Below are positions 316 through 26,058 of a stretch of 26,058 bases of DNA, in pieces. The notes under the pieces were generated by a model. That model had not been told where the DNA came from. It ran no database searches and saw nothing but the letters and a program-made list of their open reading frames with translations. A program made the position numbers and the translations under genes. Origin of the DNA: Candidatus Nanopusillus sp. (GTDB lineage: Archaea > Nanobdellota > Nanobdellia > Nanobdellales > Nanobdellaceae); assembly GCA_046536775.1 (NCBI GenBank), contig JAWDMD010000004.1, forward strand, positions 1 through 26,058, in the 5' to 3' direction. How positions within the stretch are numbered: position 1 is the stretch's first letter; each line of letters opens with the position of its first letter.

Positions 316-388
316 GAGATATTAGAAAACATTGCCCAATATAAGATTATGATTGTTAATAACCTTAATCATTTATGATAATCGAACC

Positions 389-461
389 CGGGCCCGGGGG
401 GATTCGAACCCCCGATCTTCGGGTTAAGAGCCCGACGCTTTACCAGCTAAGCTACGGGCCC
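389..461 (-). tRNA. tRNA-Lys (anticodon CUU), 73 nt, no encoded CCA
   Basis: The minus strand reads GGGCCCG-TA-GCTT-AGCTGGTA-AAGC-G-TCGGG-CTCTTAA-CCCGA-AGATC-GGGGG-TTCGAAT-CCCCC-CGGGCCC-G. It forms a perfect 7-bp acceptor stem, 4-bp D stem, 5-bp anticodon stem and 5-bp T stem with a TTCGAAT loop. The anticodon loop is C-T-CTT-A-A. The segment is a GC-rich island in AT-rich DNA. Confidence 0.92.
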
Positions 462-494
462 AATATAAATTTTATAATAAAAAGAAATTATAAA

Positions 495-5222: not shown

Positions 5223-5819
5223 ATGACACCACAAGATAGTTATAAATTAACTGATAAACCTACAATAAGAAACCTTGAAAGTATATTGAAAATACTTGAT
5301 GATGTAAAGCCAGTATTAATAGGTGGAATGGCTGTAGCTGCATATGCAAATTATTATAATATAAATTATATTAGAGAAACTGGGGATATAGATTTTATAA
5401 TAAATGAAAATAAATATGTAGATACAAAAGGAATAATATATAGAGAATTACCAAATTTACCAATTAAAGAAAGACAAATATTTGGATATGATGGTATTGA
5501 AATTAAATATAAAGATAGTCCAAGTGTAAGTATATTATTTAAAGATAAAGAAATTCCATATAATGAAATAGAATTAAATCTAGGTAAAAAGAAAATAAAA
5601 TTATATGTTGCTAAAATGGAATATCTGTTAGTAGATAAAATATTTACTTATTTGAATAGAAAGGAAGAAAAAGACTTCAATGATATAGAAATATTATCTC
5701 GTTTAATGAAAGAATATGGTTATGATAAAGACCTATTTTACAATATATTTGATGACTATTCAAAAAAATATGGAAAATATTCTTCTAAAGCTAAAGATAT
5801 TATAGAAAATATATTGTAA
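5223..5819 (+). CDS. nucleotidyltransferase-fold protein, AbiEii/DUF1814-like (solo)
   Basis: 198 aa. LIGGMAVAAY...RETGDIDFII matches the GG-x-A...R-x-[ST]-x-DIDF NTase motif of AbiEii/MenT-type toxins. The downstream YLNRKEEKDFNDIEIL resembles their R-x(3-4)-KD-x-x-D-x-x-L motif. It is shorter than typical family members, and the call rests on motif recognition only. Confidence 0.45.
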   Translation: MTPQDSYKLTDKPTIRNLESILKILDDVKPVLIGGMAVAAYANYYNINYIRETGDIDFIINENKYVDTKGIIYRELPNLPIKERQIFGYDGIEIKYKDSPSVSILFKDKEIPYNEIELNLGKKKIKLYVAKMEYLLVDKIFTYLNRKEEKDFNDIEILSRLMKEYGYDKDLFYNIFDDYSKKYGKYSSKAKDIIENIL

Positions 5820-5826
5820 ATATTTT

Positions 5827-5880
5827 TATCAGCGTAGCCGTATTCATCATTTTTCAGTTTCAAGCCAACCACATCATTAT
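5827..5880 (-). ncRNA. archaeal C/D box sRNA (2'-O-methylation guide)
   Basis: The minus strand reads ATA-ATGATGT(C)-GGTTGGCTTGAAA-CTGA(D')-AAA-ATGATGA(C')-ATACGGCTACG-CTGA(D)-TAA. All four boxes are in canonical order, with 13-nt and 11-nt guides and a 3-nt D'-C' spacer. It is an intergenic GC-enriched patch in AT-rich DNA. Confidence 0.6.
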
Positions 5881-5883
5881 TCT

Positions 5884-5935
5884 TCCCTACCTTGAGGAAC
5901 TAGTTCATGTATCCCCAGTGCATGGCAGGTAGGGA
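5884..5935 (-). other. GC-rich structured hairpin (unknown RNA or recombinase-associated element)
   Basis: 9-bp perfect stem TCCCTACCT (5884-5892) / AGGTAGGGA (5927-5935). A second 6-bp inner stem is fully paired only on the minus-strand transcript (TGGGGA/TCCTCA with one G-U, which becomes an A-C mismatch on the plus strand). It lies directly 5' of the C/D sRNA on the minus strand. Confidence 0.3.
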
Positions 5936-5995
5936 TAAAATTATAATATTTTTTATGATTTAAAATTTTTATATTGCAAAGTTTCTGAAATATAA

Positions 5996-6832
5996 ATGGA
6001 TGAAATTATTGAAGAATATAAAGTATGGTTAGAAATTCAAGGAAAATCCAAGAATACAATAAAAACATATTCTAGTACAGTAAAGAAATTTTTAGAATTT
6101 CTAATAAATAATGGAATAATTATTACAGATACAAAATCTATTAATAGTTCATTAGATAAGAATCTGATTCTAAAATTTTTGGCTGAATTAAAGGTTAAGA
6201 AAAAATTAGATTCAAATTCATTAAGATTATATGTTAGATCCATATCTTCATTTCTAAAATTTTTAGATAATGAAAATTTAGCAAAGCAAATAAAAGCTCC
6301 AAAAGTAGATAAAAGATTGCCAAAATTTATTACATATGATGAATTAAACAAGTTGTTAGAAAACGCTGAAAATTATAGAGATAAACTAATTATTAAATTC
6401 TTATTTTATACCGGAGTAAGAGTCTCTGAATTAACGAAAATAAAAAAGAATGATATAATTTTTGAAGAAGGTTTTGTAAAAGTATATGGAAAAGGTGGAA
6501 AAGAAAGAATAGTACCTGTACCAAAGGATTTGTTAAATGAATTAAAGGATTACGTAAATAAAATAAATACCGAAAATGTATTTCCACTATCATCAAGACA
6601 GGCAGAAAGAATTATAAAGAATATTGCAAAAAAAGCGGGAATAAGTAAAAAAGTAACTCCACATGTACTGAGGCATTCTCTTGCAACAACATTATTATCA
6701 AGAGGTGTTGATATAAGATATATACAAGAAATACTTGGACATAGTTCGTTAAATATTACACAAATATATACACATGTTGTTCCAAATCAACTAAAAGAAA
6801 TATATAATAGAGTTTTTGAAAGCCTAGCTTAA
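5996..6832 (+). CDS. xerA: tyrosine recombinase, XerA/XerC/XerD family
   Basis: 278 aa with an N-terminal SAM-like core-binding domain. The catalytic signature is present: YTGVRVSEL (Arg), GKGGKERIVP (Lys), HVLRHSLAT (His-x-x-Arg), LGHSSLNITQIYTHV (His, Tyr nucleophile). Confidence 0.85.
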   Translation: MDEIIEEYKVWLEIQGKSKNTIKTYSSTVKKFLEFLINNGIIITDTKSINSSLDKNLILKFLAELKVKKKLDSNSLRLYVRSISSFLKFLDNENLAKQIKAPKVDKRLPKFITYDELNKLLENAENYRDKLIIKFLFYTGVRVSELTKIKKNDIIFEEGFVKVYGKGGKERIVPVPKDLLNELKDYVNKINTENVFPLSSRQAERIIKNIAKKAGISKKVTPHVLRHSLATTLLSRGVDIRYIQEILGHSSLNITQIYTHVVPNQLKEIYNRVFESLA

Positions 6833-7717
6833 AATCGTTTTTATTTCGAAGTAATATATTACAATTACTACTATTGTTATTATAATTGATATTATAAATT
6901 CTGCAGATAATAATGGCAAGCTTTGAGATAATAATGAATTTATATTGATTGTTCTAAATATATATGGAAATAACACTGTTGCTAATATAATTGCATTTAA
7001 ATAATGAGAAATAATGAATAATGTTCTTTGTACAATATCTTTTAAATTCATAGATGTTAATATTAATAATATTATTAACGGAACAAAGAATAGATAATGT
7101 ATTGTATTTGTATATAGATATATATCTAATAATACTAGCAAATATCCTATTAATCCATATATTTTAAACTTCTTTACATTAAATATATATCCAAGAATAC
7201 CTAAAACAAATAATATTGTTGATAACAATAATAATAATGTAAAATAATTAAATATAATAAAAAGTCCCCAAAAAATATTTCCATTTAAAATTTTAATACC
7301 ATAACCTGTAATCGCTGCAGATAATATAGAAACTAATAATATTGCCATTGTTAAAGTTCCAAATAAATATATTAATATATCTCTTTTACTATATTCCTTA
7401 TTTATGCTTTTTCCTTCAAAAAATCCTATTCCAATGTTTCTAAATATGAATAAGAATAGTATAATAAATATTAGTGGATAAAATGAATATGCAACAGGAA
7501 CTAATAATGATGGTAATAAAGCTTCATATTGTACTAAAAAGAACGCAATCGATGTACCGGTTATTTCCCACATTGATAAAAATAAATTTTCATATTTTTC
7601 ATATACATCTTTATTTATAAAGAAAGATAATGCCAAAGCTATTTCTATTCCTATCAATAATAAAATTGTTGCTGCAATTAAAAATATATATGTATAAAAG
7701 TAAAATGAATAGTTCAT
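6824..7717 (-). CDS. cydB: cytochrome bd-type oxidase subunit II (divergent)
   Basis: 297-aa polytopic membrane protein. Its start overlaps the cydA stop by 4 nt (ATGA). It has a W-E-x-x-G-T segment near the position of the CydB N-E-x-W motif. The call rests mainly on position and topology. Confidence 0.6.
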   Translation of the reverse strand: MNYSFYFYTYIFLIAATILLLIGIEIALALSFFINKDVYEKYENLFLSMWEITGTSIAFFLVQYEALLPSLLVPVAYSFYPLIFIILFLFIFRNIGIGFFEGKSINKEYSKRDILIYLFGTLTMAILLVSILSAAITGYGIKILNGNIFWGLFIIFNYFTLLLLLSTILFVLGILGYIFNVKKFKIYGLIGYLLVLLDIYLYTNTIHYLFFVPLIILLILTSMNLKDIVQRTLFIISHYLNAIILATVLFPYIFRTININSLLSQSLPLLSAEFIISIIITIVVIVIYYFEIKTILS

Positions 7718-9078
7718 CCTAATTTATTAACAAAATATCTTTTTATAGCCCATATAGATAAAACAAATAATGTTATATATATTAATTCAAAGGTTATTGC
7801 AATGGAAATAACTCCAGGATTTAAATTTGCAGCATCCTTTGTTAATAATATTCCATATATTGTCCAAGGTTGTCTACCAACTTCTGCAGCAATCCATCCA
7901 GTTTCTAAAGAAATCAAAGATAATACTGATAATAATATTAATCCATATAATAATAATTTATTCATATAAAATGTATATTTTGGATTTAAAGTAAATTTTT
8001 TATCTTTTTTATCTTCTTTTGAAATTATTAAAGAAATTAATCCATACAATGATATAAAGAATATTAAGAATCCAAATGTTGCCATTATATCGAAAGAATT
8101 ATGCGCTATAGTAATATCTTTTGGTGAAGGTATATATGACTCATTTGTATATATCCCAGGAACAACTGTATTTGGATTAGCACTTTCATATAATAATAAA
8201 CTTTGCAAATTTGGAATTTGTATTGAATCAATTAATGTATAATTGTTTGTAACAATTCCAAATAAATTTTCAGGTGCATTAGAAATGTTTCCATTTAAAT
8301 TAGCCTCTAATGTTGCATACTTAATTGGTTGATATTTTGCTAATATATCTGCTGAATTTATTCCAAATATTCCTAAGAAAAATATTGATAAAAATAATAT
8401 AGGAATTGTTAATTTCAAGGCTTTCCCATATATTTTTATATTTTTAATATCCTTTTCTTTCAATATTTTATAAGAAATAATCAATACAAACAGTGATAAA
8501 CCAAATTCTAATGATGATAAAACTCCATGAGATACTTCAATAAATTGTATTGGAGTAAAGAATATAGAATATGGATTTGTATCAATATACTGACCATCCA
8601 AATATTCAATTCCTACAGGATAATTCATAAAAGAATTTAATGTTATTATTAAAAGACCAGATGTTGCTGCAAATATTCCAATTAAATACATAAATATAGG
8701 ATGTAATACTGAATTATTATATTTTTTAAATGAATAGAAATATATACCTACAAATAAAGATTCCATAAAGAATGCTAAAACCTCTATATATAATGATATA
8801 ATTGCTGTATTACTCACTATTTGCATAAATTTTGGGAATAATATATACATTTCAACAGCGACAATTGTACCTGATAATGTTCCAATTGCAAATAAAACTA
8901 ATATTAATGTTGATATTCTTTGAGCTAAAATTTTTATACTTTCATCCTTCTTTAATATTCCATATAATTCTAATGTTCCAATTGAAAAGGGCATTCCAAT
9001 GGTAATTGATGCTATTATAATATGTATAACAAGAGAAGATGCAAAAACAATCCTATCAATATCATATACAGGTAACAT
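7714..9078 (-). CDS. cydA: cytochrome bd-type quinol oxidase subunit I
   Basis: 454 aa. [23 protein letters not shown] aligns by eye with E. coli CydA [37 protein letters not shown] aligns with [31 protein letters not shown] aligns with GWFVAEYGRQPWAIG. Confidence 0.88.
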   Translation of the reverse strand: [454 protein letters not shown]

Positions 9079-10270: not shown

Positions 10271-11086
10271 TTATTCTGATTCTCTTATTGCCTTAACTAA
10301 TACAGGTATTAGTGTTAGTACAAATAAGATTACAAAACCCCATGCAAATATGCTCTCTACACTTGCTGAAATATTTGAATATCCAACAGTCAATACTGAC
10401 AATGATGATATAACGAATATTGAATATATAAATATTTGAATAAATGGTTTTACGTTTTTATAATATGAATTTTCGCTTATATGTTCTGTTATATACTTCA
10501 TAACAATTAATCCAATTGACAATATTACAAATACACCTATTATATTATCAAATAATGTATATTGGAATCCTAACAAGTTTAGAGAATAATATGTTATTAT
10601 CCATACAAATCCTAGAAATAGTAATAGTTTCAATAATTCCGCTATATATTCATTATATCCTTCAATTAGTATATATAGATATGATGTAAAGAATATGGAG
10701 AATATTACACCAGCTGCTATTATTAATACAGCTATTGATATTAATAATAATGTTGAAGAAACTGTCATTGTCAATTGTAATATATTGGATATATAATAAT
10801 ACTGAGTTGTTGTTAATACATTTGGCATAAATGATAATACACTGTTAAATACCAATATTCCCAATACTATTCCAACTAAATATGATAATAACGTTGCTAC
10901 ATTTATTTCTGGCATTTTACTAAATGTTGATTTTAATTTTTCGTATACAATCTCTATCTTTATATATTTTGCGAATAGCCAGCTCAATATCTTATATACT
11001 ATCCATCCAACAAAATAGCCTATTATACCACCCAATACTAGAAAACCAATAAAATAACCTATAGACATCAATAAGTCATATACCAT
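10271..11086 (-). CDS. polytopic membrane protein of unknown function (inserted between S12 and S7)
   Basis: 271 aa with roughly 7-8 hydrophobic segments and no motif I recognise. It has its own 114-nt upstream spacer containing A/T boxes. Confidence 0.55.
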   Translation of the reverse strand: MVYDLLMSIGYFIGFLVLGGIIGYFVGWIVYKILSWLFAKYIKIEIVYEKLKSTFSKMPEINVATLLSYLVGIVLGILVFNSVLSFMPNVLTTTQYYYISNILQLTMTVSSTLLLISIAVLIIAAGVIFSIFFTSYLYILIEGYNEYIAELLKLLLFLGFVWIITYYSLNLLGFQYTLFDNIIGVFVILSIGLIVMKYITEHISENSYYKNVKPFIQIFIYSIFVISSLSVLTVGYSNISASVESIFAWGFVILFVLTLIPVLVKAIRESE

Positions 11087-19359: not shown

Positions 19360-20220
19360 ATGGGCAAAGTGGCTATATTCACAAAGACCAACATACAAGA
19401 TTATAGAGTAGTAAAGTTAAAAGAAGAAATAAAAAATTATAATAACATTAGCATTATTGACATAGAAAAGGAAAATATGCTTCCATATAATGAAAAAATA
19501 TTAAACTATGATACATATTATTTTTTCATTGGATCCACTTTTTTATCTGATATACACCTACTAGCAAAATATCTTGAACAAAATGGAAAAGAAGTAATAA
19601 ATACCATACATATTAAAGAATCTGTAATATCAAAAACTCTATTTTATAGTATTATTAATAAATATATAAAAATTCCAGAATTTTTGAAAATATATTCAAT
19701 AGATAACATCGAATATGTAATAAATAAAATAGGATTTCCAATGGTAATAAAGCATCAGTTTGTACATAGGGGAGAATTTGTACATAAAATAGATAATGAA
19801 AAAGAACTATATGCTTTTTTAGAAAAATATTTATTAGATAAAAGGATAAACATAAAACATTTAATATTTCAAAAATATATACCATATGAGAAAGATATAA
19901 GGGTGATTTTCGTAGGAAAGCCCATTGGTGCGATGGAGAGAATTAATGAAAATAGTTTTAAGGCAAATATTAGCCAGGGTGGATATGGAAAACAATATAA
20001 TTTGGATGAAGAAATAATAAATATTGGATATAAAATTATGGAAAAATGTGACTTACAAATATTTGCATTCGATCTATTATTAAAAAATGATCAATATTAT
20101 TTGATAGACTTACATCATATATTTCAATATGAAGGATTTGATAAATATTTAAATAAAAATATTACGAGAGAAATACTAAATTACTTAAATGAAATTAGTA
20201 ATAAAAGCCAAGGGAAATAA
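19360..20220 (+). CDS. ATP-grasp ligase, RimK-like family
   Basis: 286 aa. Contains GFPMVIKHQFVHRGEFVHKI (ATP-grasp central domain), IFQKYIPYEKDIRVIFVGKPIGAMERI and ANISQGGYG. These are typical of RimK/LysX/MptN-type alpha-L-glutamate ligases. The substrate cannot be inferred. Confidence 0.7.
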   Translation: MGKVAIFTKTNIQDYRVVKLKEEIKNYNNISIIDIEKENMLPYNEKILNYDTYYFFIGSTFLSDIHLLAKYLEQNGKEVINTIHIKESVISKTLFYSIINKYIKIPEFLKIYSIDNIEYVINKIGFPMVIKHQFVHRGEFVHKIDNEKELYAFLEKYLLDKRINIKHLIFQKYIPYEKDIRVIFVGKPIGAMERINENSFKANISQGGYGKQYNLDEEIINIGYKIMEKCDLQIFAFDLLLKNDQYYLIDLHHIFQYEGFDKYLNKNITREILNYLNEISNKSQGK

Positions 20221-20596
20221 ATTAATAAAAGCAACACATAAAAGTACTTTAGAAATTACTAAAGATAGTTTTTTAACTGAAAGGGGGGATTGTATAATTG
20301 GTATAAGTTCAAATTATTCTGTAAAAGATTTACCAGAAGATCTTAAAGATCATTTATTAAACGAAGGAAAAATAAAGATTACAATTAAAGTTGATGATTT
20401 AATAGACGATATAATTGCATATGGCTCAAAAAGATTATTGTTAACAAATGATAAAAGTATTGTTATAAGAAAAAGCAATTATATTGATGATAGAACTTTG
20501 GCAATAAACTCAAATAAGAGTGCTATTGATATTGATAGAAAATTAATAGAAAGATTAAAGAATAAAAAAAATATGGATTTTGTTATATATTACTAA
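20189..20596 (+). CDS. DUF371-like protein
   Basis: 135 aa. IKATHKSTLEITKDSFLTERGDCIIGISSN matches my recollection of the DUF371 signature (ATH-x-[ST]-T-x-E-[IV]-TK...LT-x-x-GDCI-[IV]-G). The start overlaps the ATP-grasp gene by 32 nt. Confidence 0.55.
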   Translation: MKLVIKAKGNKLIKATHKSTLEITKDSFLTERGDCIIGISSNYSVKDLPEDLKDHLLNEGKIKITIKVDDLIDDIIAYGSKRLLLTNDKSIVIRKSNYIDDRTLAINSNKSAIDIDRKLIERLKNKKNMDFVIYY

Positions 20597-20633: not shown

Positions 20634-21395
20634 ATGAAAAGAAGAGGTATAGATATGGCTGTACAGTTAATATTTGTAATAATAATAATGTTAGTAGTAG
20701 CAGTTATTGTAATCAAGTTATTCCAGCAACAATCATCAAAGATTAGCGAAATATCAAATACACAAATACAACAAGCAGTTTCTGATTGCTCAAGCTATTG
20801 TACAGATCTATCTACATTTTGTACAAAGTACGAAAATATAGGAAATGGACTTGTACAAACAAGTCCTGGATATTATGTCTGTTTAAATGCTGTTCCATGC
20901 AGTATAGTATTACAATTATATGGTGGCTCTTCTAGTCAATGTCAAAATCAAGGATTTTCCATATCACCTCTTGATTGCATGTATTTAGAATGTCAAAATT
21001 ATATTGACAATTTATATTATAGTCCATTACAAGCAACAAGTTATATATTTGGAAATTATTCTTCTACTACATATTTTAATGTAACATCTGGACAAGAAAA
21101 TATCCAAATTTCAGCTCCATCCTCAATATTAAATCCAGGTCCATCACAATGTTCTGCACAATTACCAACATGGATTACAAACCAAGTATTTGGTGCATTA
21201 TTAGATATAGCTAACTACTATAATACTGCAGATGGATGTAACTTGAATTTAACAGTTAGTAATGGAATATTAATGGTGACTGGAAATTGTACATCATTAG
21301 GTATAAATAATAATGTTAATGGAATGCCATTGTGCCAATTCTTAATGCAAGTACCATATTCTCAGTTAAATAATATACCAAGCGTAACAAGCTAA
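20634..21395 (+). CDS. cysteine-rich secreted / pilin-like protein (12 Cys)
   Basis: 253 aa. The N-terminus MKRRGIDMAVQLIFVIIIMLVVAVIVIKLF is a basic stretch, then Gly, then a 22-residue hydrophobic helix (class III signal-peptide look). There are 12 Cys and several N-x-S/T sequons. The box TATTTATAAA lies about 28 nt upstream. Confidence 0.5.
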   Translation: MKRRGIDMAVQLIFVIIIMLVVAVIVIKLFQQQSSKISEISNTQIQQAVSDCSSYCTDLSTFCTKYENIGNGLVQTSPGYYVCLNAVPCSIVLQLYGGSSSQCQNQGFSISPLDCMYLECQNYIDNLYYSPLQATSYIFGNYSSTTYFNVTSGQENIQISAPSSILNPGPSQCSAQLPTWITNQVFGALLDIANYYNTADGCNLNLTVSNGILMVTGNCTSLGINNNVNGMPLCQFLMQVPYSQLNNIPSVTS

Positions 21396-21400
21396 ATGTA

Positions 21401-23371
21401 ATGAGTTTTTTTGAGTATTTTTATAACAACTTTAATTTAATAAAATTAAAAGCTCCTAGTTCTATATATAAAAAGTATGCTTTTCATTTATGGTTAAATA
21501 GATTAAATACAAATCCAGATAATATATTTTCTTCTGTAATAAATCTAGCATTATTTTCCATAATTATATATTTTATTTTAAGTTTTGTCAGTTTTCAATT
21601 AGCTTTTTCTTTATTAATATCTTTATTAATATTATCTTTCTATTTTGCATATTATCCAATATTTTATACACAAATTGTTAGAATTCAAGTAACATCCGAA
21701 ATTATATGGATAATACTATATTTATCACTATATCTAAAAAGAAATCCTAATTTAGAAAACGGAATAAAATATGTAGCTTATTATATGAAAGGTTATATTG
21801 CAACAGACTTTAAATCATTATTATATAATTTAGAAACAAATAAATTTAATGATATAGAATCTGCATTGGAATATTATCAGAGAAGATGGTTTTATCTAAG
21901 TCCAGATTTTGTATATGCAATGACACATATTGTAAATATTAAATATAAAACATCTATTGATGATATAAATAAATTATTAGATAGAATATTGGGGTGGGTA
22001 TTGAAAAAATCCTTAGAAAAATCCCAATTATATGTAGATGCTTTAAAAGAACCAGCAACAGTTATCGTATCTTTCTTAGTAATGTTACCAATAGTTAGTT
22101 TAATGATGTTACCAATAGTATCTTTATTCTTATTAAATACCGTAAGTTTCTATTTTATAGCATTTTCATATATAATAATTTTACCAGTTGTTACATTTCT
22201 AATAATTCAAAACTTTCTATCAAAAAATCCATTTGCATTCTCTGTTCCAGATTTATCCTTAGCAAGAGATCTACCAAAACCTGGAAAATTTAAAGTAGGA
22301 AATAAGGAAGTTCCAGCAATAATAATCTCAATAATATTGGGATCAATTGCATTTTTAGGAATATATCATTTAATTTCCTTAGCTATAAAAATTGCACTTA
22401 TTCCACAGGGATTTTTGAGTGATTATTTAAATATAGTTTATCAAGATAGAGCATTAATATATTCTGTTTTAACTCTAACATTACCTTTAGGATTGGGTTT
22501 GGGTATAGGATCTTATTACTATTTAACATCTTTCCAAAAAGTTAAAAAAATATATCAAATTGAAGAAATAGAAAATGAGTTTCCAATTGTTGTATATGAG
22601 TTTGCATCATTATTAGAAGATGGTTATCCATTTGAAATAGTAATTGAAAAAACATATTATAATTATAAAATAATAAAATCCTCTGGGGTTATGGAAAATT
22701 TTCTGAAAACAACACTATATAACTTGAGAAGAGGTTATGATTTAAATTTTTCTGTATTTGATCCAAAAATTGGCTCTTTAAATCTATATCCATCAAAATT
22801 AGTGAGAGAATCAATGCAACTCTTAGTTACTTCTTCTTCAAAAGGTCCTGATGTTTTATCAAAGATTTCATATAATATATCAACAAATTTAGAAAATGTA
22901 GATAATATAAGATATAATGTAAGGAAGATATTAAATGAAATAATTGGATTAATAGATATGACATCAAGAAATTTAGTACCATTAATTTCTGCAATGGTTA
23001 CAATTTTTAATAACGGTATAGTTTCAATGCTTTTTGCACTTGCATATTTCTTTCAATTAATAGACCAATCTTTTGGTTTAGGTGGTGGATCAAATCTATA
23101 TAATTTTATTGTAAATACCTTTAATCTATATAACCTAATACCACCAACATTTTTTGAAGCAATAATTGGTATATTTTTTATAGAATATGTGGTAATAACT
23201 TCATATATGAGTGCTGGAATAAAATATGGTTTTGATAGTACAATGACATCATATTATATAGGTAGAAATTTGTTGTTTGGAACGATATTTTATGTAATAT
23301 TTTCAATAATAGGAATATTAGTTATATATACAGTATTTGGCCCATACTTACCGACAAGTATACAATTATGA
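21401..23371 (+). CDS. polytopic membrane protein, FlaJ/TadC/PilC-like type IV filament platform (putative)
   Basis: 656 aa with many TM segments and two repeated soluble helical blocks (about residues 93-225 and 385-525). Their pattern, e.g. IENEFPIVVYEFASLLEDGYPFEIVIEKTY...LRRGYDLNFSV...LVRESMQLLVTSSSKGPDVLSKIS, resembles the duplicated T2SS-F domain. Pilin-like genes flank it. Confidence 0.55.
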   Translation: MSFFEYFYNNFNLIKLKAPSSIYKKYAFHLWLNRLNTNPDNIFSSVINLALFSIIIYFILSFVSFQLAFSLLISLLILSFYFAYYPIFYTQIVRIQVTSEIIWIILYLSLYLKRNPNLENGIKYVAYYMKGYIATDFKSLLYNLETNKFNDIESALEYYQRRWFYLSPDFVYAMTHIVNIKYKTSIDDINKLLDRILGWVLKKSLEKSQLYVDALKEPATVIVSFLVMLPIVSLMMLPIVSLFLLNTVSFYFIAFSYIIILPVVTFLIIQNFLSKNPFAFSVPDLSLARDLPKPGKFKVGNKEVPAIIISIILGSIAFLGIYHLISLAIKIALIPQGFLSDYLNIVYQDRALIYSVLTLTLPLGLGLGIGSYYYLTSFQKVKKIYQIEEIENEFPIVVYEFASLLEDGYPFEIVIEKTYYNYKIIKSSGVMENFLKTTLYNLRRGYDLNFSVFDPKIGSLNLYPSKLVRESMQLLVTSSSKGPDVLSKISYNISTNLENVDNIRYNVRKILNEIIGLIDMTSRNLVPLISAMVTIFNNGIVSMLFALAYFFQLIDQSFGLGGGSNLYNFIVNTFNLYNLIPPTFFEAIIGIFFIEYVVITSYMSAGIKYGFDSTMTSYYIGRNLLFGTIFYVIFSIIGILVIYTVFGPYLPTSIQL

Positions 23372-23652
23372 GATTACAACAAACAATATATTGGATTATA
23401 ATAACCTTTATATTAATTATAGTTGCTGGCTTATTCTCTTTTTATTATATTTATAATGTAAAAAATAATTTAAGTGGAAATAGTATACAAACCATTAATT
23501 GTCAACAACTTGGAAATTTATATAATAGAAGTTTTCAGGAAATAATCAATATTAAAGTATTTCTTAATGAAAATTGTACAATAAATGGAATAACGATACC
23601 TGCAGGCTATAGAATTATATATATTTATAACGGAAGTATTAATTATATATGA
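23368..23652 (+). CDS. small N-terminally anchored pilin-like protein (2 Cys)
   Basis: 94 aa: MRLQQTIYWIIITFILIIVAGLFSFYYIY..., then ...INCQQLGNLY...NENCT. The start overlaps the platform gene stop (ATGA). Confidence 0.45.
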   Translation: MRLQQTIYWIIITFILIIVAGLFSFYYIYNVKNNLSGNSIQTINCQQLGNLYNRSFQEIINIKVFLNENCTINGITIPAGYRIIYIYNGSINYI

Positions 23653-24128
23653 AGAACGACATAGCAATAGATACTGTATTTATAATAATAATAGCAATAA
23701 TATCTGTCGTAGTTGTATTAGATATTATTTTTACAAAATTCTTTGGCAATTCTCAAGTATATTATTGTCAAACATTAATATCACAAGGTGGTTTTTCTCC
23801 TTCATGTGAAAAATATTATCCTTCTGCAATAAATGTTATATATACAAATGAAAGTAATGATACTATTTATTCAGATACAACAGGATTAATATTAAATTGC
23901 TACAATAATAATGTAAACACAAATAGATTATTTAATGTATGTTATGATGTTTATATAAATGAGAATATTACTCTGAATTCATCAATATTACTTCAATATA
24001 TACAAAATTATACTGAATTTAATCCAAATAATATCATATTCAATTTGAATAATAGCAATGGAAATATATATCCATACAATAGTATATTTATAATATACAA
24101 CAATAGTTATATTTTAATATGGCAATAA
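23649..24128 (+). CDS. small N-terminally anchored pilin-like protein (4 Cys)
   Basis: 159 aa. MKNDIAIDTVFIIIIAIISVVVVLDIIF resembles the archaeal class III signal pattern K-G-Q-I-S-L-E-F-hydrophobic. This is followed by YYCQTLISQGGFSPSCEKYY. ATGA overlap with the upstream gene. Confidence 0.45.
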   Translation: MKNDIAIDTVFIIIIAIISVVVVLDIIFTKFFGNSQVYYCQTLISQGGFSPSCEKYYPSAINVIYTNESNDTIYSDTTGLILNCYNNNVNTNRLFNVCYDVYINENITLNSSILLQYIQNYTEFNPNNIIFNLNNSNGNIYPYNSIFIIYNNSYILIWQ

Positions 24129-24532
24129 AGTCTCAAGAACTTCCAATTAATTATACCTTTTTAATAATTATTGGAATAGTTGTTACATTAGTAATTGTGG
24201 GCATAATATTTTTATTAAAAGGAAATATAACTTCTTATATTGATAATACAATACCCAAATATAATAATACGCAGACTGTAGTAGAAACAAATATAAGTTC
24301 AATACAAGATGTTGCGATGGATGTAGTATCATGTTATTATAAAAAAGCCCAGGGTCTTTGTTATTTAATTAACTATCAGGGAAATCCATTTACATGTCAG
24401 GATTTAATAAATAATGTAAGCAGTATAGATCCAAATGTAGTAATGCAGAATTGTAATTATAATATAAATACTGGAGATTATATACTAGTATATTCGGCAG
24501 TAAATTATGTTTATATTAGTATTCAAGGGTAA
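24119..24532 (+). CDS. small N-terminally anchored pilin-like protein (4 Cys)
   Basis: 137 aa: MAIKSQELPINYTFLIIIGIVVTLVIVGIIFLL, then SCYYKKAQGLCY...FTCQDL...QNCNY. 10-nt overlap with the upstream gene. Confidence 0.45.
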   Translation: MAIKSQELPINYTFLIIIGIVVTLVIVGIIFLLKGNITSYIDNTIPKYNNTQTVVETNISSIQDVAMDVVSCYYKKAQGLCYLINYQGNPFTCQDLINNVSSIDPNVVMQNCNYNINTGDYILVYSAVNYVYISIQG

Positions 24533-24534
24533 AA

Positions 24535-24975
24535 ATGGATAATTGGTTTTGGATAATTGTAACAATTATTGCTTTTGGTTTATCTTTATATTTATATTTT
24601 AAATTTGCGAGTATAAATAGTCAAACCCAATCATTATATCAAGATATATCTTCATGTCAAAATTTATATACAACAGTTGAAAAAGTATGCTATTCTAACA
24701 ATGGAACAGAATTCTATATTAACATTGAAATAAACAATTATTTAAATTATATTTATGGTAATAATAGTTTATTAAGTTGTTATATATATGACAAATATTA
24801 TAATTATACAATACCATGCAATGTAATAATAAATACAACAAATAATACGATTGAATATTATACTTCCGGATTATTTTACGAATTATCGCGTGGAAAATCA
24901 AATGAACAAATCCCACTACTTGTTGAAAAGACATCTCCAACACAAGTAACAATTTATATAGAAAATCCAAGTTAA
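24535..24975 (+). CDS. small N-terminally anchored pilin-like protein (4 Cys)
   Basis: 146 aa: MDNWFWIIVTIIAFGLSLYLYF, then ISSCQNLYTTVEKVCYS...LLSCYIY...IPCNVI. 2-nt gap from the upstream gene. Confidence 0.45.
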   Translation: MDNWFWIIVTIIAFGLSLYLYFKFASINSQTQSLYQDISSCQNLYTTVEKVCYSNNGTEFYINIEINNYLNYIYGNNSLLSCYIYDKYYNYTIPCNVIINTTNNTIEYYTSGLFYELSRGKSNEQIPLLVEKTSPTQVTIYIENPS

Positions 24976-25011: not shown

Positions 25012-26058
25012 ATGAAAAGAGATCAATTAAATTTACTTTCAATAGTAATAATATTAGTAGTTATATCATTATCTTTCCTAATATATTATCAATATTCTTC
25101 TAATGTTAAAAGGGAACAAGAAAAATATATATTTGAAAATTTTATTAACAGTTTACAGAATTTAGAGAATACAATAAATAGTATTCAAGGCACTTATTAT
25201 GTAAAAGTTGATATACCAAGTGGAGTTATATTATATACAAATAGTACAGAATTAATAATACAATATAATAACAATAATTATACAATTAATTTTTACAAGA
25301 ATGTAACATTGTATAATAATAATCAAAACGTGAGTTTTTTATATCCAAACAATTATATATATCTTGTTAGTACAAATAATACTATTTTTATTACAACAAA
25401 TTTTCAGAATTCAATTACTGTATTTAATCAATATTTACCTAATGGATCTCTTATAATTATAAATCCCGAAAATAATCAAAACAATAACAACAATGGAGGA
25501 AATAATAATATTAACTCAAATTCTCAATGTTTAGTTAACTATACTGGACAAACAAGCTTTTTCTGGGGTGATGTAAATGGTAATAATTATTTACCTCCAA
25601 TAGGAGACCAGGGAAATTGCGGAGATTGTTGGGCTTTTGCTAGCGCAAACGGAATTGCTTCAGTATATATGATAAGAAATAATGAATCTAATTATGGATT
25701 ACAATTATCCCCAGCATATTTAGCGATAGAATGCAATAAGGGTTATCAAAATAATCAACCAGAGTGTAGCTCTGAAGAAGGATGCAATGGTGGTTGGCCA
25801 TATTATGGTATAGTATTTACATCTCAAAATGGCATACCGCCAGATCCTGGATGGAGCAATTATGATTCTACTTTATATGGATGCCCAGGAAATGGTTTTA
25901 GTTATCCGGGCGATGTGTGTAATTATAATTATAATGGACCCACTTCTCCATTATATTATCCAGAGGGTGTTATAGATCTTGAGGAAAATGGACCTTTATC
26001 AGATCAACAAATAATTCAAGATTTATTATGTTATGGACCTTTAGTAGCTGCTGGAATG
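25012..26058 (+). CDS. papain-family (C1) cysteine peptidase with N-terminal pilin-like anchor domain (3' end beyond window)
   Basis: Not in the ORF track because it runs off the window. My own translation from the ATG at 25012 is open for 349 codons. It has four parts: an anchor (MKRDQLNLLSIVIILVVISLSFLIYY); a beta-rich region of about 130 aa; an Asn-rich linker (NPENNQNNNNNGGNNNINSNS); and a C1 domain. The C1 domain reads FFWGDVNGNNYLPPIGDQGNCGDCWAFASANGIAS (catalytic Cys codon 25627-25629), GCNGGW and GPLVAAG. Confidence 0.8.
   Translation, partial: MKRDQLNLLSIVIILVVISLSFLIYYQYSSNVKREQEKYIFENFINSLQNLENTINSIQGTYYVKVDIPSGVILYTNSTELIIQYNNNNYTINFYKNVTLYNNNQNVSFLYPNNYIYLVSTNNTIFITTNFQNSITVFNQYLPNGSLIIINPENNQNNNNNGGNNNINSNSQCLVNYTGQTSFFWGDVNGNNYLPPIGDQGNCGDCWAFASANGIASVYMIRNNESNYGLQLSPAYLAIECNKGYQNNQPECSSEEGCNGGWPYYGIVFTSQNGIPPDPGWSNYDSTLYGCPGNGFSYPGDVCNYNYNGPTSPLYYPEGVIDLEENGPLSDQQIIQDLLCYGPLVAAGM

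What the first reader, a model, noticed from the sequence alone, without database searches (positions are those of the whole stretch)
25012..26058. Papain-like cysteine protease fused behind a pilin-like anchor and a poly-Asn linker
Seen in sequence: the last ORF of the cluster has four parts in order.
- An N-terminal anchor, MKRDQLNLLSIVIILVVISLSFLIYY.
- A beta-rich module of about 130 aa whose end (NNYIYLVSTNNTIFITTN) resembles the C-terminal strands of the four upstream small proteins.
- A low-complexity Asn/Gly linker.
- A clear C1 peptidase domain with QGNCGDCWAF (papain Cys25 context), GCNGGW and GPLVAAG.

Established knowledge: C1A peptidases are normally made as Sec-secreted pro-enzymes with an I29-type propeptide. 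No propeptide-like ERFNIN segment is visible here.

Inference: the protease may be displayed on, or delivered by, the filament or pseudopilus encoded upstream, for example to attack a host envelope or S-layer. I do not know of a described pilin-fused C1 protease. The catalytic His and Asn lie beyond the window, so activity cannot be judged.
Basis: partly seen in the sequence, partly recalled or inferred. Interest (0 to 1): 0.7.

Follow-up and report, generated by a model that had tools for sequence, protein, structure and literature searches.

The report
Pilin-like anchor carrying papain-type protease
A tiny parasitic archaeon (Nanopusillus group) encodes an apparently active papain-type protease tied by a floppy asparagine-rich tether to a pilin-shaped membrane anchor, inside a conserved pilus-assembly-like operon, which makes it a testable candidate tool for working on the host's (or its own) cell envelope.

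Summary
ORF 25012-26058 (cut by the window end) has four parts: an N-terminal hydrophobic helix, a ~125-aa module, an Asn/Gly linker and a Peptidase_C1 domain (PF00112, E 7e-13). Full-length orthologues (98% identical, 470-570 aa) keep Gln/Cys/His/Asn/Trp, so it is not a pseudo-protease, and there is no I29 propeptide.

Two details are wrong. It is not the last gene: the operon continues with six more genes. The "shared C-terminal strands" are not above composition-matched chance.

The pilin idea is partly supported.
- An AlphaFold model gives one 55-residue N-terminal helix plus a beta head.
- The operon's 656-aa membrane protein is a divergent TadC/FlaJ platform (arCOG01814).
- In archaeon YN1 the same module is a free-standing 141-aa gene, and the protease is fused instead to the orthologue of the upstream 146-aa protein. 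So the N-module is a swappable carrier, not a prodomain.

Caveats:
- there is no canonical prepilin-peptidase site;
- no prepilin peptidase is annotated in N. acidilobi;
- no ATPase lies in the operon;
- Foldseek found no pilin match;
- no filament or substrate data exist.

Bacterial modular pilins and the Sulfolobus bindosome are precedents. I rate it a new variant of a known kind, of moderate interest.

The parts
25012..25089 (+). Residues 1-26. Short polar leader (MKRD), invariant Gln5, then a hydrophobic helix. This is the membrane anchor, equivalent to the alpha1-N part of a pilin.
   Evidence: Only hydrophobic segment of the protein. M1, K2, Q5, L6 and N7 are invariant in 37 orthologues, while position 4 varies (D/Y/N/G/S). 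Helical in the AF2 model.
25090..25185 (+). Residues 27-58. Amphipathic continuation of the same helix, equivalent to the alpha1-C part of a pilin.
   Evidence: The AF2 model gives one continuous helix over residues 3-57, block pLDDT 79-91. Mean pairwise identity among orthologues is 83%.
25186..25416 (+). Residues 59-135. Beta-sheet head of the N-module, eight predicted strands.
   Evidence: AF2 strands lie at 62-128, pLDDT about 80-90. Mean pairwise identity is 84%, higher than in the protease domain. The same module is a free-standing 141-142-aa protein in YN1 and in L016 (hmmsearch E 2e-28 and 5e-23).
25417..25527 (+). Residues 136-172. Low-confidence connector followed by an Asn/Gly/Gln low-complexity linker.
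   Evidence: pLDDT is below 50 from residue 136. The linker is 59% Asn. Its length ranges from 15 to 68 aa among orthologues and is longer still in P0031 and P0038, often with NQT sequons.
25528..26058 (+). Residues 173-349. N-terminal roughly 55% of a papain-family (C1) peptidase domain, cut by the window end. Gln200 is codon 25609-25611 and the catalytic Cys206 is codon 25627-25629.
   Evidence: PF00112, E 7e-13. Alignment with papain puts Gln19, Cys22, Cys25 and Trp26 in register. Orthologue P0001 continues with GHAMLLVGY (His) and FENQW (Asn, Trp).
24535..24975 (+). g146, a 146-aa protein with an N-terminal hydrophobic helix. In archaeon YN1 it is the alternative carrier of the protease.
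   Evidence: The YN1 579-aa C1 protein has an N-terminus 58% identical to g146 over 142 aa, E 3e-57. The AF2 model has low confidence (pLDDT 59.7) but shows helix 3-52 followed by strands.
24119..24532 (+). g137, a small protein with an N-terminal hydrophobic helix. Operon member.
   Evidence: Syntenic in all ten related genomes examined. Its coding region overlaps or abuts its neighbours.
23649..24128 (+). g159, a small protein with the N-terminus MKNDIA|IDTVF followed by a hydrophobic helix. Operon member.
   Evidence: The Ala-Ile-Asp junction resembles the Gly-Ile-Asp junction of g253.
23368..23652 (+). g94, a small protein with the N-terminus MRLQQ followed by a hydrophobic helix. Operon member.
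21401..23371 (+). g656, a polytopic membrane protein. It is a divergent TadC/FlaJ (T2SSF-family) platform protein.
   Evidence: BLASTP E 6e-63 over its full length to P0056, which passes Pfam T2SSF (31 bits against a cut-off of 25.2). The N. acidilobi orthologue Nps_00520 is assigned to arCOG01814, which is named 'Pilus assembly protein TadC'. It is 93-96% identical among Nanopusillus genomes.
20634..21395 (+). g253, a Cys-rich 253-aa protein with a canonical-looking class III signal (MKRRG|IDMAVQLIFVIII). Candidate pilin of the operon.
   Evidence: The sequence and its conservation across genomes, including MKKRA|IDMAVQ in L011. No family hit.

Best explanation
The gene encodes a bimodular surface protein of a Nanopusillaceae archaeon.

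Architecture:
- A pilin-shaped carrier: a very short leader, a ~55-residue N-terminal helix whose first half sits in the membrane, and a small beta head.
- A flexible Asn/Gly/Thr-rich linker of variable length, probably N-glycosylated.
- A catalytically competent, propeptide-less, disulfide-rich papain-family (C1) protease that faces outward.

Context: the gene sits in the middle of a conserved operon of about 13 genes. The operon is built around a TadC/FlaJ-type platform protein and contains at least eight proteins with the same kind of N-terminus.

Proposed mechanism: the carrier lets the platform machinery handle the protein like a minor or modular pilin, or like a bindosome subunit. The assembly ATPase would be encoded elsewhere in the genome. 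The protein would be held at the cell surface, or at the end of a short filament, so that the tethered protease can cut envelope proteins. The most plausible target is the host S-layer or host surface proteins at the contact site; the cell's own surface proteins are the alternative.

Shown: domain composition; intact catalytic residues in orthologues; autonomy and swapping of the carrier; operon conservation; TadC homology of the platform.

Inferred: pilin-like handling, surface display, and the substrate.
For: 1. Protease. PF00112 is hit in the window fragment and in the full-length orthologue. Gln19, Cys25, His159 and Trp177 are aligned and invariant, and Asn175 is aligned, against papain. 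In 37 orthologues Cys206 and His370 are invariant, and Gln200, Asn402 and Trp404 are at least 90% conserved. There are 15 Cys, all in the protease domain, and 10 N-glycosylation sequons.

2. Carrier shape. The AF2 model has pLDDT 77.7 and pTM 0.63, with helix 3-57 followed by eight strands. There is a single hydrophobic segment at residues 6-26.

3. Carrier autonomy. A profile of the module finds free-standing 141- and 142-aa proteins (E 2e-28 and 5e-23). The 141-aa one is a gene of the same operon in YN1, L012:15785-16210.

4. Carrier swap. In YN1 the C1 domain (45% identical, E 3e-75) is fused behind the orthologue of the upstream g146 protein (58% identical, E 3e-57). The fusion goes through a different middle module and a Pro/Ser linker.

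5. Selection pattern. The module is more conserved than the protease (82% against 71% mean pairwise identity). The linker is hypervariable at 15-68 aa.

6. Machinery. g656 is a TadC/FlaJ homologue. g253 has a canonical class III-type N-terminus. The operon is syntenic in ten genomes, namely eight GTDB species plus YN1 and DAIUEN01, and its genes overlap. N. acidilobi has an arCOG01818 ATPase, detected by proteomics, next to a second arCOG01814 paralogue elsewhere in the genome.

7. Prevalence. All N-terminally complete family loci among the 41 found in the metagenome scan carry the module-protease fusion.

8. Precedent. Modular pilins are described in bacteria (PMC8179133) and the bindosome in Sulfolobus (PMC3387779).

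9. Biological need. In YN1 the host membrane is drawn through the host S-layer at the contact site, and the proteins of the attachment organelle are unknown (PMC11420986).
Against: - The N-terminus has no Gly/Ala at the position before the hydrophobic stretch (MKRD-Q). That position is variable among orthologues, so a canonical prepilin-peptidase site is absent.
- No A24 prepilin peptidase is annotated in N. acidilobi. Makarova et al. likewise report none in two nanoarchaeal genomes.
- No ATPase gene lies in the operon.
- Foldseek against the PDB gave no hit below E 0.25 and no pilin among the top 50. Sequence profiles hit no pilin, archaellin or PilC structure.
- No Pfam or NCBIfam pilin model is hit.
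- The whole operon, Nps_00465 to Nps_00525, was undetected in the N. acidilobi proteome. Only about a third of proteins were detected, and glycosylated membrane proteins are hard to see.
- The alignments behind the structure models are shallow (at least 69% identity), so the models rest on little covariation.
- Nothing here bears directly on the substrate.
Confidence: 0.5

Rival explanations
1. It is an ordinary type II (signal-anchor) membrane ectoprotease. The N-terminal helix is just a membrane anchor, the beta module is a stalk that sits under the S-layer, and the protein is not handled by any pilus-like machinery. Operon membership would reflect co-expression of surface proteins, or a static membrane complex.
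For: - No canonical prepilin cleavage motif.
- No annotated prepilin peptidase in N. acidilobi.
- No ATPase in the operon.
- No structural or profile match to pilins.
- With 15-35 residues, most linkers are too short to cross a pseudo-periplasm unless the carrier is lifted. The width of that space comes from my own knowledge of archaeal envelopes.
Against: - The helix is predicted to run about 30 residues beyond the membrane segment and to be followed by a small beta head. That is the pilin layout rather than a simple anchor.
- The carrier is more conserved than the enzyme.
- At least eight operon proteins share the same N-terminal design next to a TadC homologue.
- The protease has been moved between two such carriers within the operon.
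Confidence: 0.3
2. The protease works on the cell's own proteins or on food rather than on the host envelope. It would mature or turn over the symbiont's own pilin-like and S-layer proteins, or scavenge host-derived peptides. The carrier would merely keep it from diffusing away.
For: - It is co-encoded with many secreted or anchored proteins that could be substrates.
- Cysteine peptidases of the transglutaminase-like family are genomically linked to archaeal type IV pilus loci and were suggested to process or degrade pilins (PMC4858521).
- Nanobdellota depend on their hosts for most nutrients (PMC11420986).
Against: - Nothing here speaks directly against it.
- The leaders of the operon proteins are cytoplasmic while the protease is external, so it cannot replace the missing prepilin peptidase. 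This is a topological argument and an inference.
- The faster evolution of the protease domain and its C-terminal insert (71% and 60% identity against 82% for the carrier) fits a partner-facing role slightly better.
Confidence: 0.12
3. The N-module is a functional replacement for the missing I29 propeptide. It would act as an intramolecular chaperone or inhibitor that folds or silences the protease and is later removed.
For: C1A enzymes usually need a prodomain (established knowledge) and none is present here. The module lies N-terminal to the enzyme, as a prodomain would.
Against: - The same module is a separate gene in YN1 and in L016, where the protease carries a different N-terminal partner.
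- It begins with a membrane helix.
- It is separated from the enzyme by a 15-90-residue disordered linker.
- It shows no similarity to I29.
Confidence: 0.04
4. The domain is a pseudo-protease that serves as a binding (adhesin) module.
For: - The domain is very divergent from characterised C1A enzymes: the best PDB match has E 3.5e-6 and covers only about 75 residues.
- It has large insertions.
- One sub-lineage (P0038, P0039) has lost the oxyanion-hole Gln and changed Trp177 to Phe.
Against: In 37 orthologues Cys206 and His370 are invariant, and Gln200, Asn402 and Trp404 are at least 90% conserved. The same residues are in register with papain in the YN1 protein and in the distant 436-aa and 489-aa forms aligned in A3 and A5.
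Confidence: 0.04

Closest known systems
Bacterial modular type IV pilins, such as Streptococcus sanguinis PilB (pilin + vWA) and PilC (pilin + lectin). An InterPro census lists more than 1,200 such proteins in 264 architectures, including a peptidase module, IPR030392 (PMC8179133).
   Same: A small N-terminal pilin-type module is joined by a linker to a bulky functional module unrelated to pilus biology. The gene lies next to pilus-assembly genes. The carrier-plus-cargo logic is the same, and so is the swapping of the cargo between carriers.
   Different: - This case is archaeal.
- The leader lacks the Gly(-1) and Glu(+5) signature, and no prepilin peptidase is known in the organism.
- The cargo is a C1 papain-type protease, which that paper does not name among its examples.
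- Membership in the pilin family could not be shown by sequence or by Foldseek.
[quoted passage not shown]
   Same: In an archaeon, functional non-filament proteins carry a pilin-like N-terminus. They depend on a dedicated platform/ATPase system and accessory small pilin-like proteins for surface localisation.
   Different: - The cargo is an enzyme (a protease), not a solute-binding protein.
- The ATPase is not in the operon.
- Bindosome substrates are cut by PibD at a canonical site, which is absent here.
Haloarchaeal subclade 4F type IV pilus loci: arCOG01818 ATPase, arCOG01814 TadC and several predicted pilins (PMC4858521 and its supplement).
   Same: The platform protein of this operon falls in the same arCOG (arCOG01814) and is followed by a row of small proteins with a single N-terminal helix. 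That paper noted that the cognate pilins of nanoarchaeal systems could not be identified, and these genes are candidates.
   Different: - There is no adjacent ATPase.
- The small proteins match no pilin arCOG or Pfam model.
- A protease fusion and two extra polytopic membrane proteins are present.
Papain, cathepsin L and falcipain (MEROPS family C1, subfamily C1A).
   Same: It matches the Pfam C1 model, has the Gln-Cys-His-Asn-Trp catalytic set, and has the CGxCW and GCxGG motifs.
   Different: - No signal peptide plus I29 propeptide.
- About 25% identity to papain.
- Extra Cys-rich insertions: about 12 aa after the His strand and about 45 aa after the Asn-x-Trp motif.
- It is tethered to a membrane carrier.
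Surface-displayed archaeal proteases and pilus-linked cysteine peptidases. Examples are the protease bound to the S-layer of Staphylothermus marinus (PMC3387779) and the transglutaminase-like peptidases linked to euryarchaeal type IV pilus loci (PMC4858521).
   Same: A protease is held on an archaeal surface structure, or a cysteine peptidase is genomically associated with pilus genes.
   Different: The peptidase families differ (subtilisin and transglutaminase-like). Those are separate proteins, not fusions to a pilin-like module.

Membership tests
Peptidase family C1 (papain family; Pfam PF00112) | Match to the family profile above the curated threshold | tested here: met
   49.6 bits against 20.7 for the window fragment. 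60.8 bits for the full-length orthologue P0001.
Peptidase family C1 (papain family; Pfam PF00112) | Catalytic Cys in the Q-x(5)-C-W context (papain Gln19 and Cys25) | tested here: met
   DQGNCGDCWAF lies at residues 199-209 of the window ORF and is in register with papain.
Peptidase family C1 (papain family; Pfam PF00112) | Catalytic His159 and Asn175 (plus Trp177) | tested here: met
   These residues are not in the window because the gene is cut. They are present in the 98%-identical P0001 as GHAMLLVGY and FENQW. His is invariant and Asn and Trp are at least 90% conserved in 37 orthologues.
Peptidase family C1 (papain family; Pfam PF00112) | Sec signal peptide plus I29-type inhibitory propeptide (typical of subfamily C1A, not defining for family C1) | tested here: not met
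   Only PF00112 is hit. The mature-domain start (FFWGDVNGNNYLPP) follows the linker directly.
Peptidase family C1 (papain family; Pfam PF00112) | Thiol-dependent, E-64-sensitive proteolytic activity | not testable with these tools
   Needs recombinant enzyme.
Type IV pilin / type IV filament subunit (modular pilin) | Class III signal peptide: short polar leader ending in Gly/Ala, cleaved by an A24 prepilin peptidase | tested here: not met
   - The leader is MKRD, followed by invariant Gln5.
- The residue before Gln is D/Y/N/G/S among orthologues; only a few read KG|Q.
- No A24 peptidase appears in the published N. acidilobi annotation.
- Processing itself cannot be tested here.
Type IV pilin / type IV filament subunit (modular pilin) | N-terminal alpha-helix of about 50 residues, hydrophobic in its first half | tested here: met
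   AF2 gives helix 3-57 with pLDDT 79-91. The hydrophobic segment spans residues 6-26. This is a prediction only.
Type IV pilin / type IV filament subunit (modular pilin) | Globular beta-sheet head with structural similarity to known pilins or archaellins | tested here: inconclusive
Type IV pilin / type IV filament subunit (modular pilin) | Genomic association with a platform protein (PilC/TadC/FlaJ) and an assembly ATPase | tested here: inconclusive
   The platform is present in the operon. The ATPase is absent from the operon. An arCOG01818 ATPase is encoded elsewhere in N. acidilobi according to the published annotation.
Type IV pilin / type IV filament subunit (modular pilin) | Incorporation into a filament | not testable with these tools
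   Needs microscopy or biochemistry.
TadC/FlaJ/GspF platform proteins (Pfam T2SSF, arCOG01814), for g656 at 21401-23371 | Match to the T2SSF profile | tested here: inconclusive
   - There is no direct hit at E <= 0.1.
- The full-length homologue P0056 (BLASTP E 6e-63) passes the threshold at 31 bits against 25.2.
- The orthologue Nps_00520 is assigned to arCOG01814, which is TadC.
- The internal two-domain repeat was not detectable by hhalign.

The most novel reading that the evidence does not exclude
The operon comprises a TadC paralogue, at least eight pilin-like proteins, two polytopic membrane proteins and the tethered C1 protease. In this reading it encodes the still unidentified host-contact apparatus of Nanopusillaceae-type ectosymbionts. 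That apparatus would be the filament/portal part of the 'attachment organelle' seen by cryo-ET in YN1 and YN4. The protease would be the tip enzyme that locally opens the host S-layer so that the membranes can meet.
Probability: 0.15. Interest if true: 0.85.

Novelty: new variant of a known kind. Interest (0 to 1): 0.55.

Why it matters
How nanosized DPANN/Nanobdellota archaea breach the S-layer of their hosts and build a cytoplasmic bridge is an open question. The YN1 paper states that the proteins of the attachment organelle are unknown.

This finding offers a concrete, conserved and experimentally tractable candidate: an apparently active protease physically tethered to a pilin-like carrier, next to a pilus platform gene. 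It is present in cultivated systems (N. acidilobi as Nps_00495, and YN1), so it can be tested.

It also gives candidates for the nanoarchaeal pilins that a systematic survey could not identify. And it extends the 'modular pilin' principle, a functional module grafted on a pilin carrier, to archaea and to a papain-type enzyme. A natural domain swap between two carriers serves as internal evidence.

If instead it is only an anchored housekeeping ectoprotease, it is of modest interest.

Tried and rejected
1. Sequence homology between the N-module and the four upstream small proteins.
   - hhalign probabilities were below 1% for the soluble parts. Only the N-terminal helices scored, at 7-47%.
   - Shuffle tests of the C-terminal strands gave z <= 2.4. 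The 'QNL..T' helix motif shared with g146 gave z about 2.2.
   - Rejected as evidence of homology.
2. Foldseek of the N-module model against the PDB gave no meaningful hits. The best were ribosomal protein fragments at E 0.25.
4. Profile and sequence searches of the N-module, g656 and g253 against PDB sequences found nothing below E 0.3.
5. Pfam and NCBIfam scans of all operon proteins gave no pilin, archaellin or T2SSF hit. Only chance-level matches to membrane helices appeared.
6. An hhalign search for the internal T2SSF duplication in g656 found nothing.
7. The AF2 model of g146 has low confidence (pLDDT 59.7). I used only its secondary-structure pattern and did not send it to fold search.
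8. Proteomic support was sought and not found. The orthologous operon is blank in the N. acidilobi proteome table.
9. Literature searches for Nanopusillus/Nanoarchaeota plus peptidase or cysteine protease found no discussion of this protein.
10. The prodomain and pseudo-protease readings were considered and set aside; see the rival explanations.
11. A role as substitute prepilin peptidase was rejected on topology. The enzyme is outside the membrane and the leaders are inside.
Full report
**Origin and setting**

The window has about 25% G+C. It carries archaeal core genes: FtsZ, ribosomal proteins L11/L1/L10, S7 and S12, a split RpoB, RpoA'/A'', RpoH, and cytochrome bd subunit I. Close homologues of its proteins come from Candidatus Nanopusillus and Nanobsidianus genomes and from metagenomes. 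The organism is therefore a member of the Nanopusillaceae, nanosized ectosymbionts of thermoacidophilic Crenarchaeota (PMC4935971).

**Checking the observation**

- Frame 1 from 25012 is open to the window end, 349 codons.
- It begins MKRDQLNLLSIVIILVVISLSFLIYY, the only hydrophobic segment of the protein.
- Residues 27-150 form an Asn/Ile/Tyr-rich module.
- Residues 151-172 form a linker that is 59% Asn.
- From about residue 173 there is a Peptidase_C1 domain: PF00112, 49.6 bits against a threshold of 20.7, E 7e-13. Its motif is DQGNCGDCWAF, and the catalytic Cys codon is 25627-25629.

Two details of the finding do not hold.

First, this is not the last gene of the cluster. In an 86-kb syntenic contig (L003), and in every other related genome, six more genes follow in the same direction.

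Second, the claimed resemblance between the end of the module and the C-terminal strands of the four upstream proteins is not above chance once the extreme Asn/Ile/Tyr composition is taken into account. Shuffle z-scores are -0.4 to 2.4. Profile-profile probabilities for the soluble parts are below 1%.

**Is it a real protease?**

The search found 44 close relatives (E <= 2.4e-36), and those recovered full-length are 470-570 aa. The 98%-identical P0001 continues past the window end with ...GHAMLLVGY... and ...CWIFENQWAD....

In an alignment with papain and two ordinary prokaryotic C1 enzymes, Gln19, Cys22, Cys25, Trp26, His159 and Trp177 are invariant and Asn175 is in register. Among 37 orthologues Cys206 and His370 are invariant, and Gln200, Asn402 and Trp404 are at least 90% conserved.

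The enzyme is very divergent. The best PDB sequence match has E 3.5e-6. It has Cys-rich insertions after the His strand and after the Asn-x-Trp motif. No I29 propeptide is present; the mature-domain start follows the linker directly.

All 15 Cys lie in the protease domain, and there are 10 N-x-S/T sequons. This fits an extracellular glycoprotein, although that reading is an inference. One sub-lineage (P0038, P0039) has lost the oxyanion-hole Gln.

**What is the N-terminal module?**

An AlphaFold2 model built on 18 orthologues has mean pLDDT 77.7 and pTM 0.63. It predicts one continuous helix over residues 3-57, eight beta strands over residues 62-128, and disorder from residue 136. That is the 'lollipop' layout of type IV pilins as described in PMC8179133. 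The supporting alignment is shallow, however. Foldseek against the PDB gave no significant match, and the more sensitive libraries were unavailable.

The decisive evidence is comparative. An exhaustive profile search with the module found eight proteins in total:

- two module-C1 fusions from the Nanopusillus group (P0013 and the 489-aa P0057);
- a 66-aa fragment;
- a more distant 436-aa fusion (P0061);
- two free-standing proteins of 141 and 142 aa, with E 2e-28 and 5e-23;
- two weak matches (E above 1e-4) to unrelated repeat-rich proteins.

The 141-aa protein is a gene of the same operon in the complete genome of Nanobdellota archaeon YN1, at L012:15785-16210.

In YN1 the C1 domain is 45% identical to ours (E 3e-75). 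It is fused to the orthologue of the upstream 146-aa protein g146 (58% identity over 142 aa, E 3e-57), through an extra beta-rich middle module and a Pro/Ser linker. An independent assembly gives the same fusion (P0044).

So the protease has been attached to two different small operon proteins in two lineages. The module of our protein is an autonomous member of that protein set, not a prodomain.

Three further observations fit a carrier that must fit a conserved partner, with a cargo that is freer to evolve:

- The module is more conserved than the enzyme: 82% mean pairwise identity, against 71% for the protease and 60% for its C-terminal insert.
- The linker varies from 15 to 68 residues in that alignment and is longer still in P0031 and P0038.
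- All N-terminally complete family loci among the 41 found in a metagenome scan carry the module-C1 fusion.

**The operon**

The gene order is RimK-like ATP-grasp, DUF371, g253, g656, g94, g159, g137, g146, C1. In Nanopusillus the following genes are d275, d552, d400, d412, d215 and d344. This order is conserved in eight GTDB species, including N. acidilobi and N. stetteri, and also in YN1 and DAIUEN01. Coding regions overlap or abut.

g656 is the best-conserved protein of the operon, 93-96% identical among Nanopusillus genomes. It has no direct Pfam hit. Over its full length, however, it is homologous (E 6e-63) to a protein that passes the T2SSF threshold. Its N. acidilobi orthologue Nps_00520 is assigned to arCOG01814, which Makarova et al. 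name 'Pilus assembly protein TadC' of subclade 4F.

g253 starts MKRRG|IDMAVQLIFVIII, a canonical-looking class III signal. g94, g159, g137, the C1 protein, d552, d412 and d215 all start with a 3-6-residue polar leader, usually M-[KR]-x-Q, followed by about 20 hydrophobic residues. g146 has the same design without the charge.

A low-confidence model of g146 (pLDDT 59.7) shows the same pattern: helix 3-52, then strands.

**What argues against a bona fide type IV filament system**

- The residue before the invariant Gln is variable (D/Y/N/G/S), so a canonical Gly/Ala cleavage site is missing.
- No A24 prepilin peptidase is annotated in N. acidilobi, although its host has one. Makarova et al. also report none in two nanoarchaeal genomes.
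- No ATPase lies in the operon or the window. N. acidilobi does encode an arCOG01818 ATPase, detected by proteomics, next to a second arCOG01814 paralogue elsewhere in the genome.
- None of the operon proteins was detected in the N. acidilobi proteome. Only about one third of all proteins were detected.

**Mechanism proposed**

The protein is best read as a bimodular surface protein: a pilin-shaped carrier, a flexible and probably glycosylated tether, and an active C1 protease. The TadC-centred apparatus encoded around it would handle it like a minor or modular pilin, or like a bindosome subunit.

Most linkers are too short to cross an archaeal pseudo-periplasm on their own. This rests on my own knowledge of envelope dimensions. 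Reaching the outside would therefore require the carrier to be lifted, for example at the tip of a short filament.

The substrate is unknown. Cryo-ET of YN1 shows the host membrane drawn through the host S-layer at the contact site, and the organelle proteins are unidentified. The host S-layer is therefore the most attractive target. The cell's own surface proteins, or nutrient peptides, are alternatives.

**Comparison with what is known**

- Modular pilins are established in bacteria, and one recorded architecture has a peptidase module (PMC8179133).
- In Sulfolobus, non-pilin proteins with class III signals are assembled into the bindosome by pilus-biogenesis homologues (PMC3387779).
- Transglutaminase-like cysteine peptidases are genomically linked to euryarchaeal pilus loci (PMC4858521).

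The gene itself has been annotated as 'Peptidase C1A subfamily' (Nps_00495, Nst1_643) since the genome papers. I found no discussion of its fusion architecture, its operon, or a role in symbiosis.

Because the defining class III signal is not met, I do not file it as a type IV pilin. I describe it as working like a modular pilin.

**Verdict**

It is a new variant of a known kind, with interest 0.55. The most novel reading not excluded is that this operon builds the host-contact apparatus, with the protease as an S-layer cutter. I give that reading a probability of about 0.15.

Noticed in passing
L003:11529-18225 (syntenic continuation beyond the window end): The operon continues with six genes that have no Pfam hits:
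- d275, which has an N-terminal signal-like helix and a C-terminal membrane helix;
- d552, d412 and d215, all with M[KR]xQ plus a hydrophobic N-terminus and Cys-rich ectodomains;
- two polytopic membrane proteins, d400 and d344.
   Followed up: partly
L012:13201-14940 and L012:15785-16210 (YN1 genome AP031373.1): There is a natural domain swap. In YN1 the C1 protease is fused to the g146 orthologue through an extra beta-rich module and a Pro/Ser linker. The N-module of the window protein is a separate 141-aa gene there. YN1 also has a duplicated d275-like gene of 172 aa.
   Followed up: yes
window 20634-21395 (+): g253 is a Cys-rich 253-aa protein and the only operon member with a canonical-looking class III signal (MKRRG|IDMAVQ...). 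It may be one of the nanoarchaeal pilins that Makarova et al. could not identify. Neither its structure nor its homologues were examined.
   Followed up: partly
window 19360-20596 (+): A RimK-family ATP-grasp ligase and a DUF371 protein overlap each other and sit directly upstream of the operon in every genome examined. Whether they belong to it, for example by modifying a surface protein, is unknown.
   Followed up: no
window 6824-9078 (-): Cytochrome bd oxidase subunit I (7714-9078) is followed by a 297-aa ORF with no Pfam hit (6824-7717). This is probably the divergent subunit II that Jarett et al. 2018 describe for Nanoarchaeota.
   Followed up: no
window 5223-6832 (+): An AbiEii-like nucleotidyltransferase (5223-5819) and a tyrosine recombinase of the phage-integrase family (5996-6832) lie between the ribosomal-protein genes and the cytochrome bd genes. 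The recombinase could be the chromosomal XerA-type enzyme or a remnant of a mobile element.
   Followed up: no
window 10271-11086 (-): A 271-aa ORF with no Pfam hit lies between the S7 and S12 ribosomal protein genes.
   Followed up: no
P0038 and P0039 (orthologues; loci L049, L050 and L053): One sub-lineage of the fusion protein has replaced the oxyanion-hole Gln (DQGNCGDCW becomes ESKFCGSCW) and Trp177 (ENQW becomes ENTF). It carries very long Gly/Ser-rich linkers. Its activity may be altered or lost.
   Followed up: partly
window 25462-25527 and orthologue linkers: Many orthologue linkers contain repeated N-Q-T units (TNQTNQTNQT). These are tandem N-glycosylation sequons and suggest a heavily glycosylated tether.
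   Followed up: no
window 388-462 (-): tRNA-Lys (CTT) is the only RNA gene detected in the window.
   Followed up: yes
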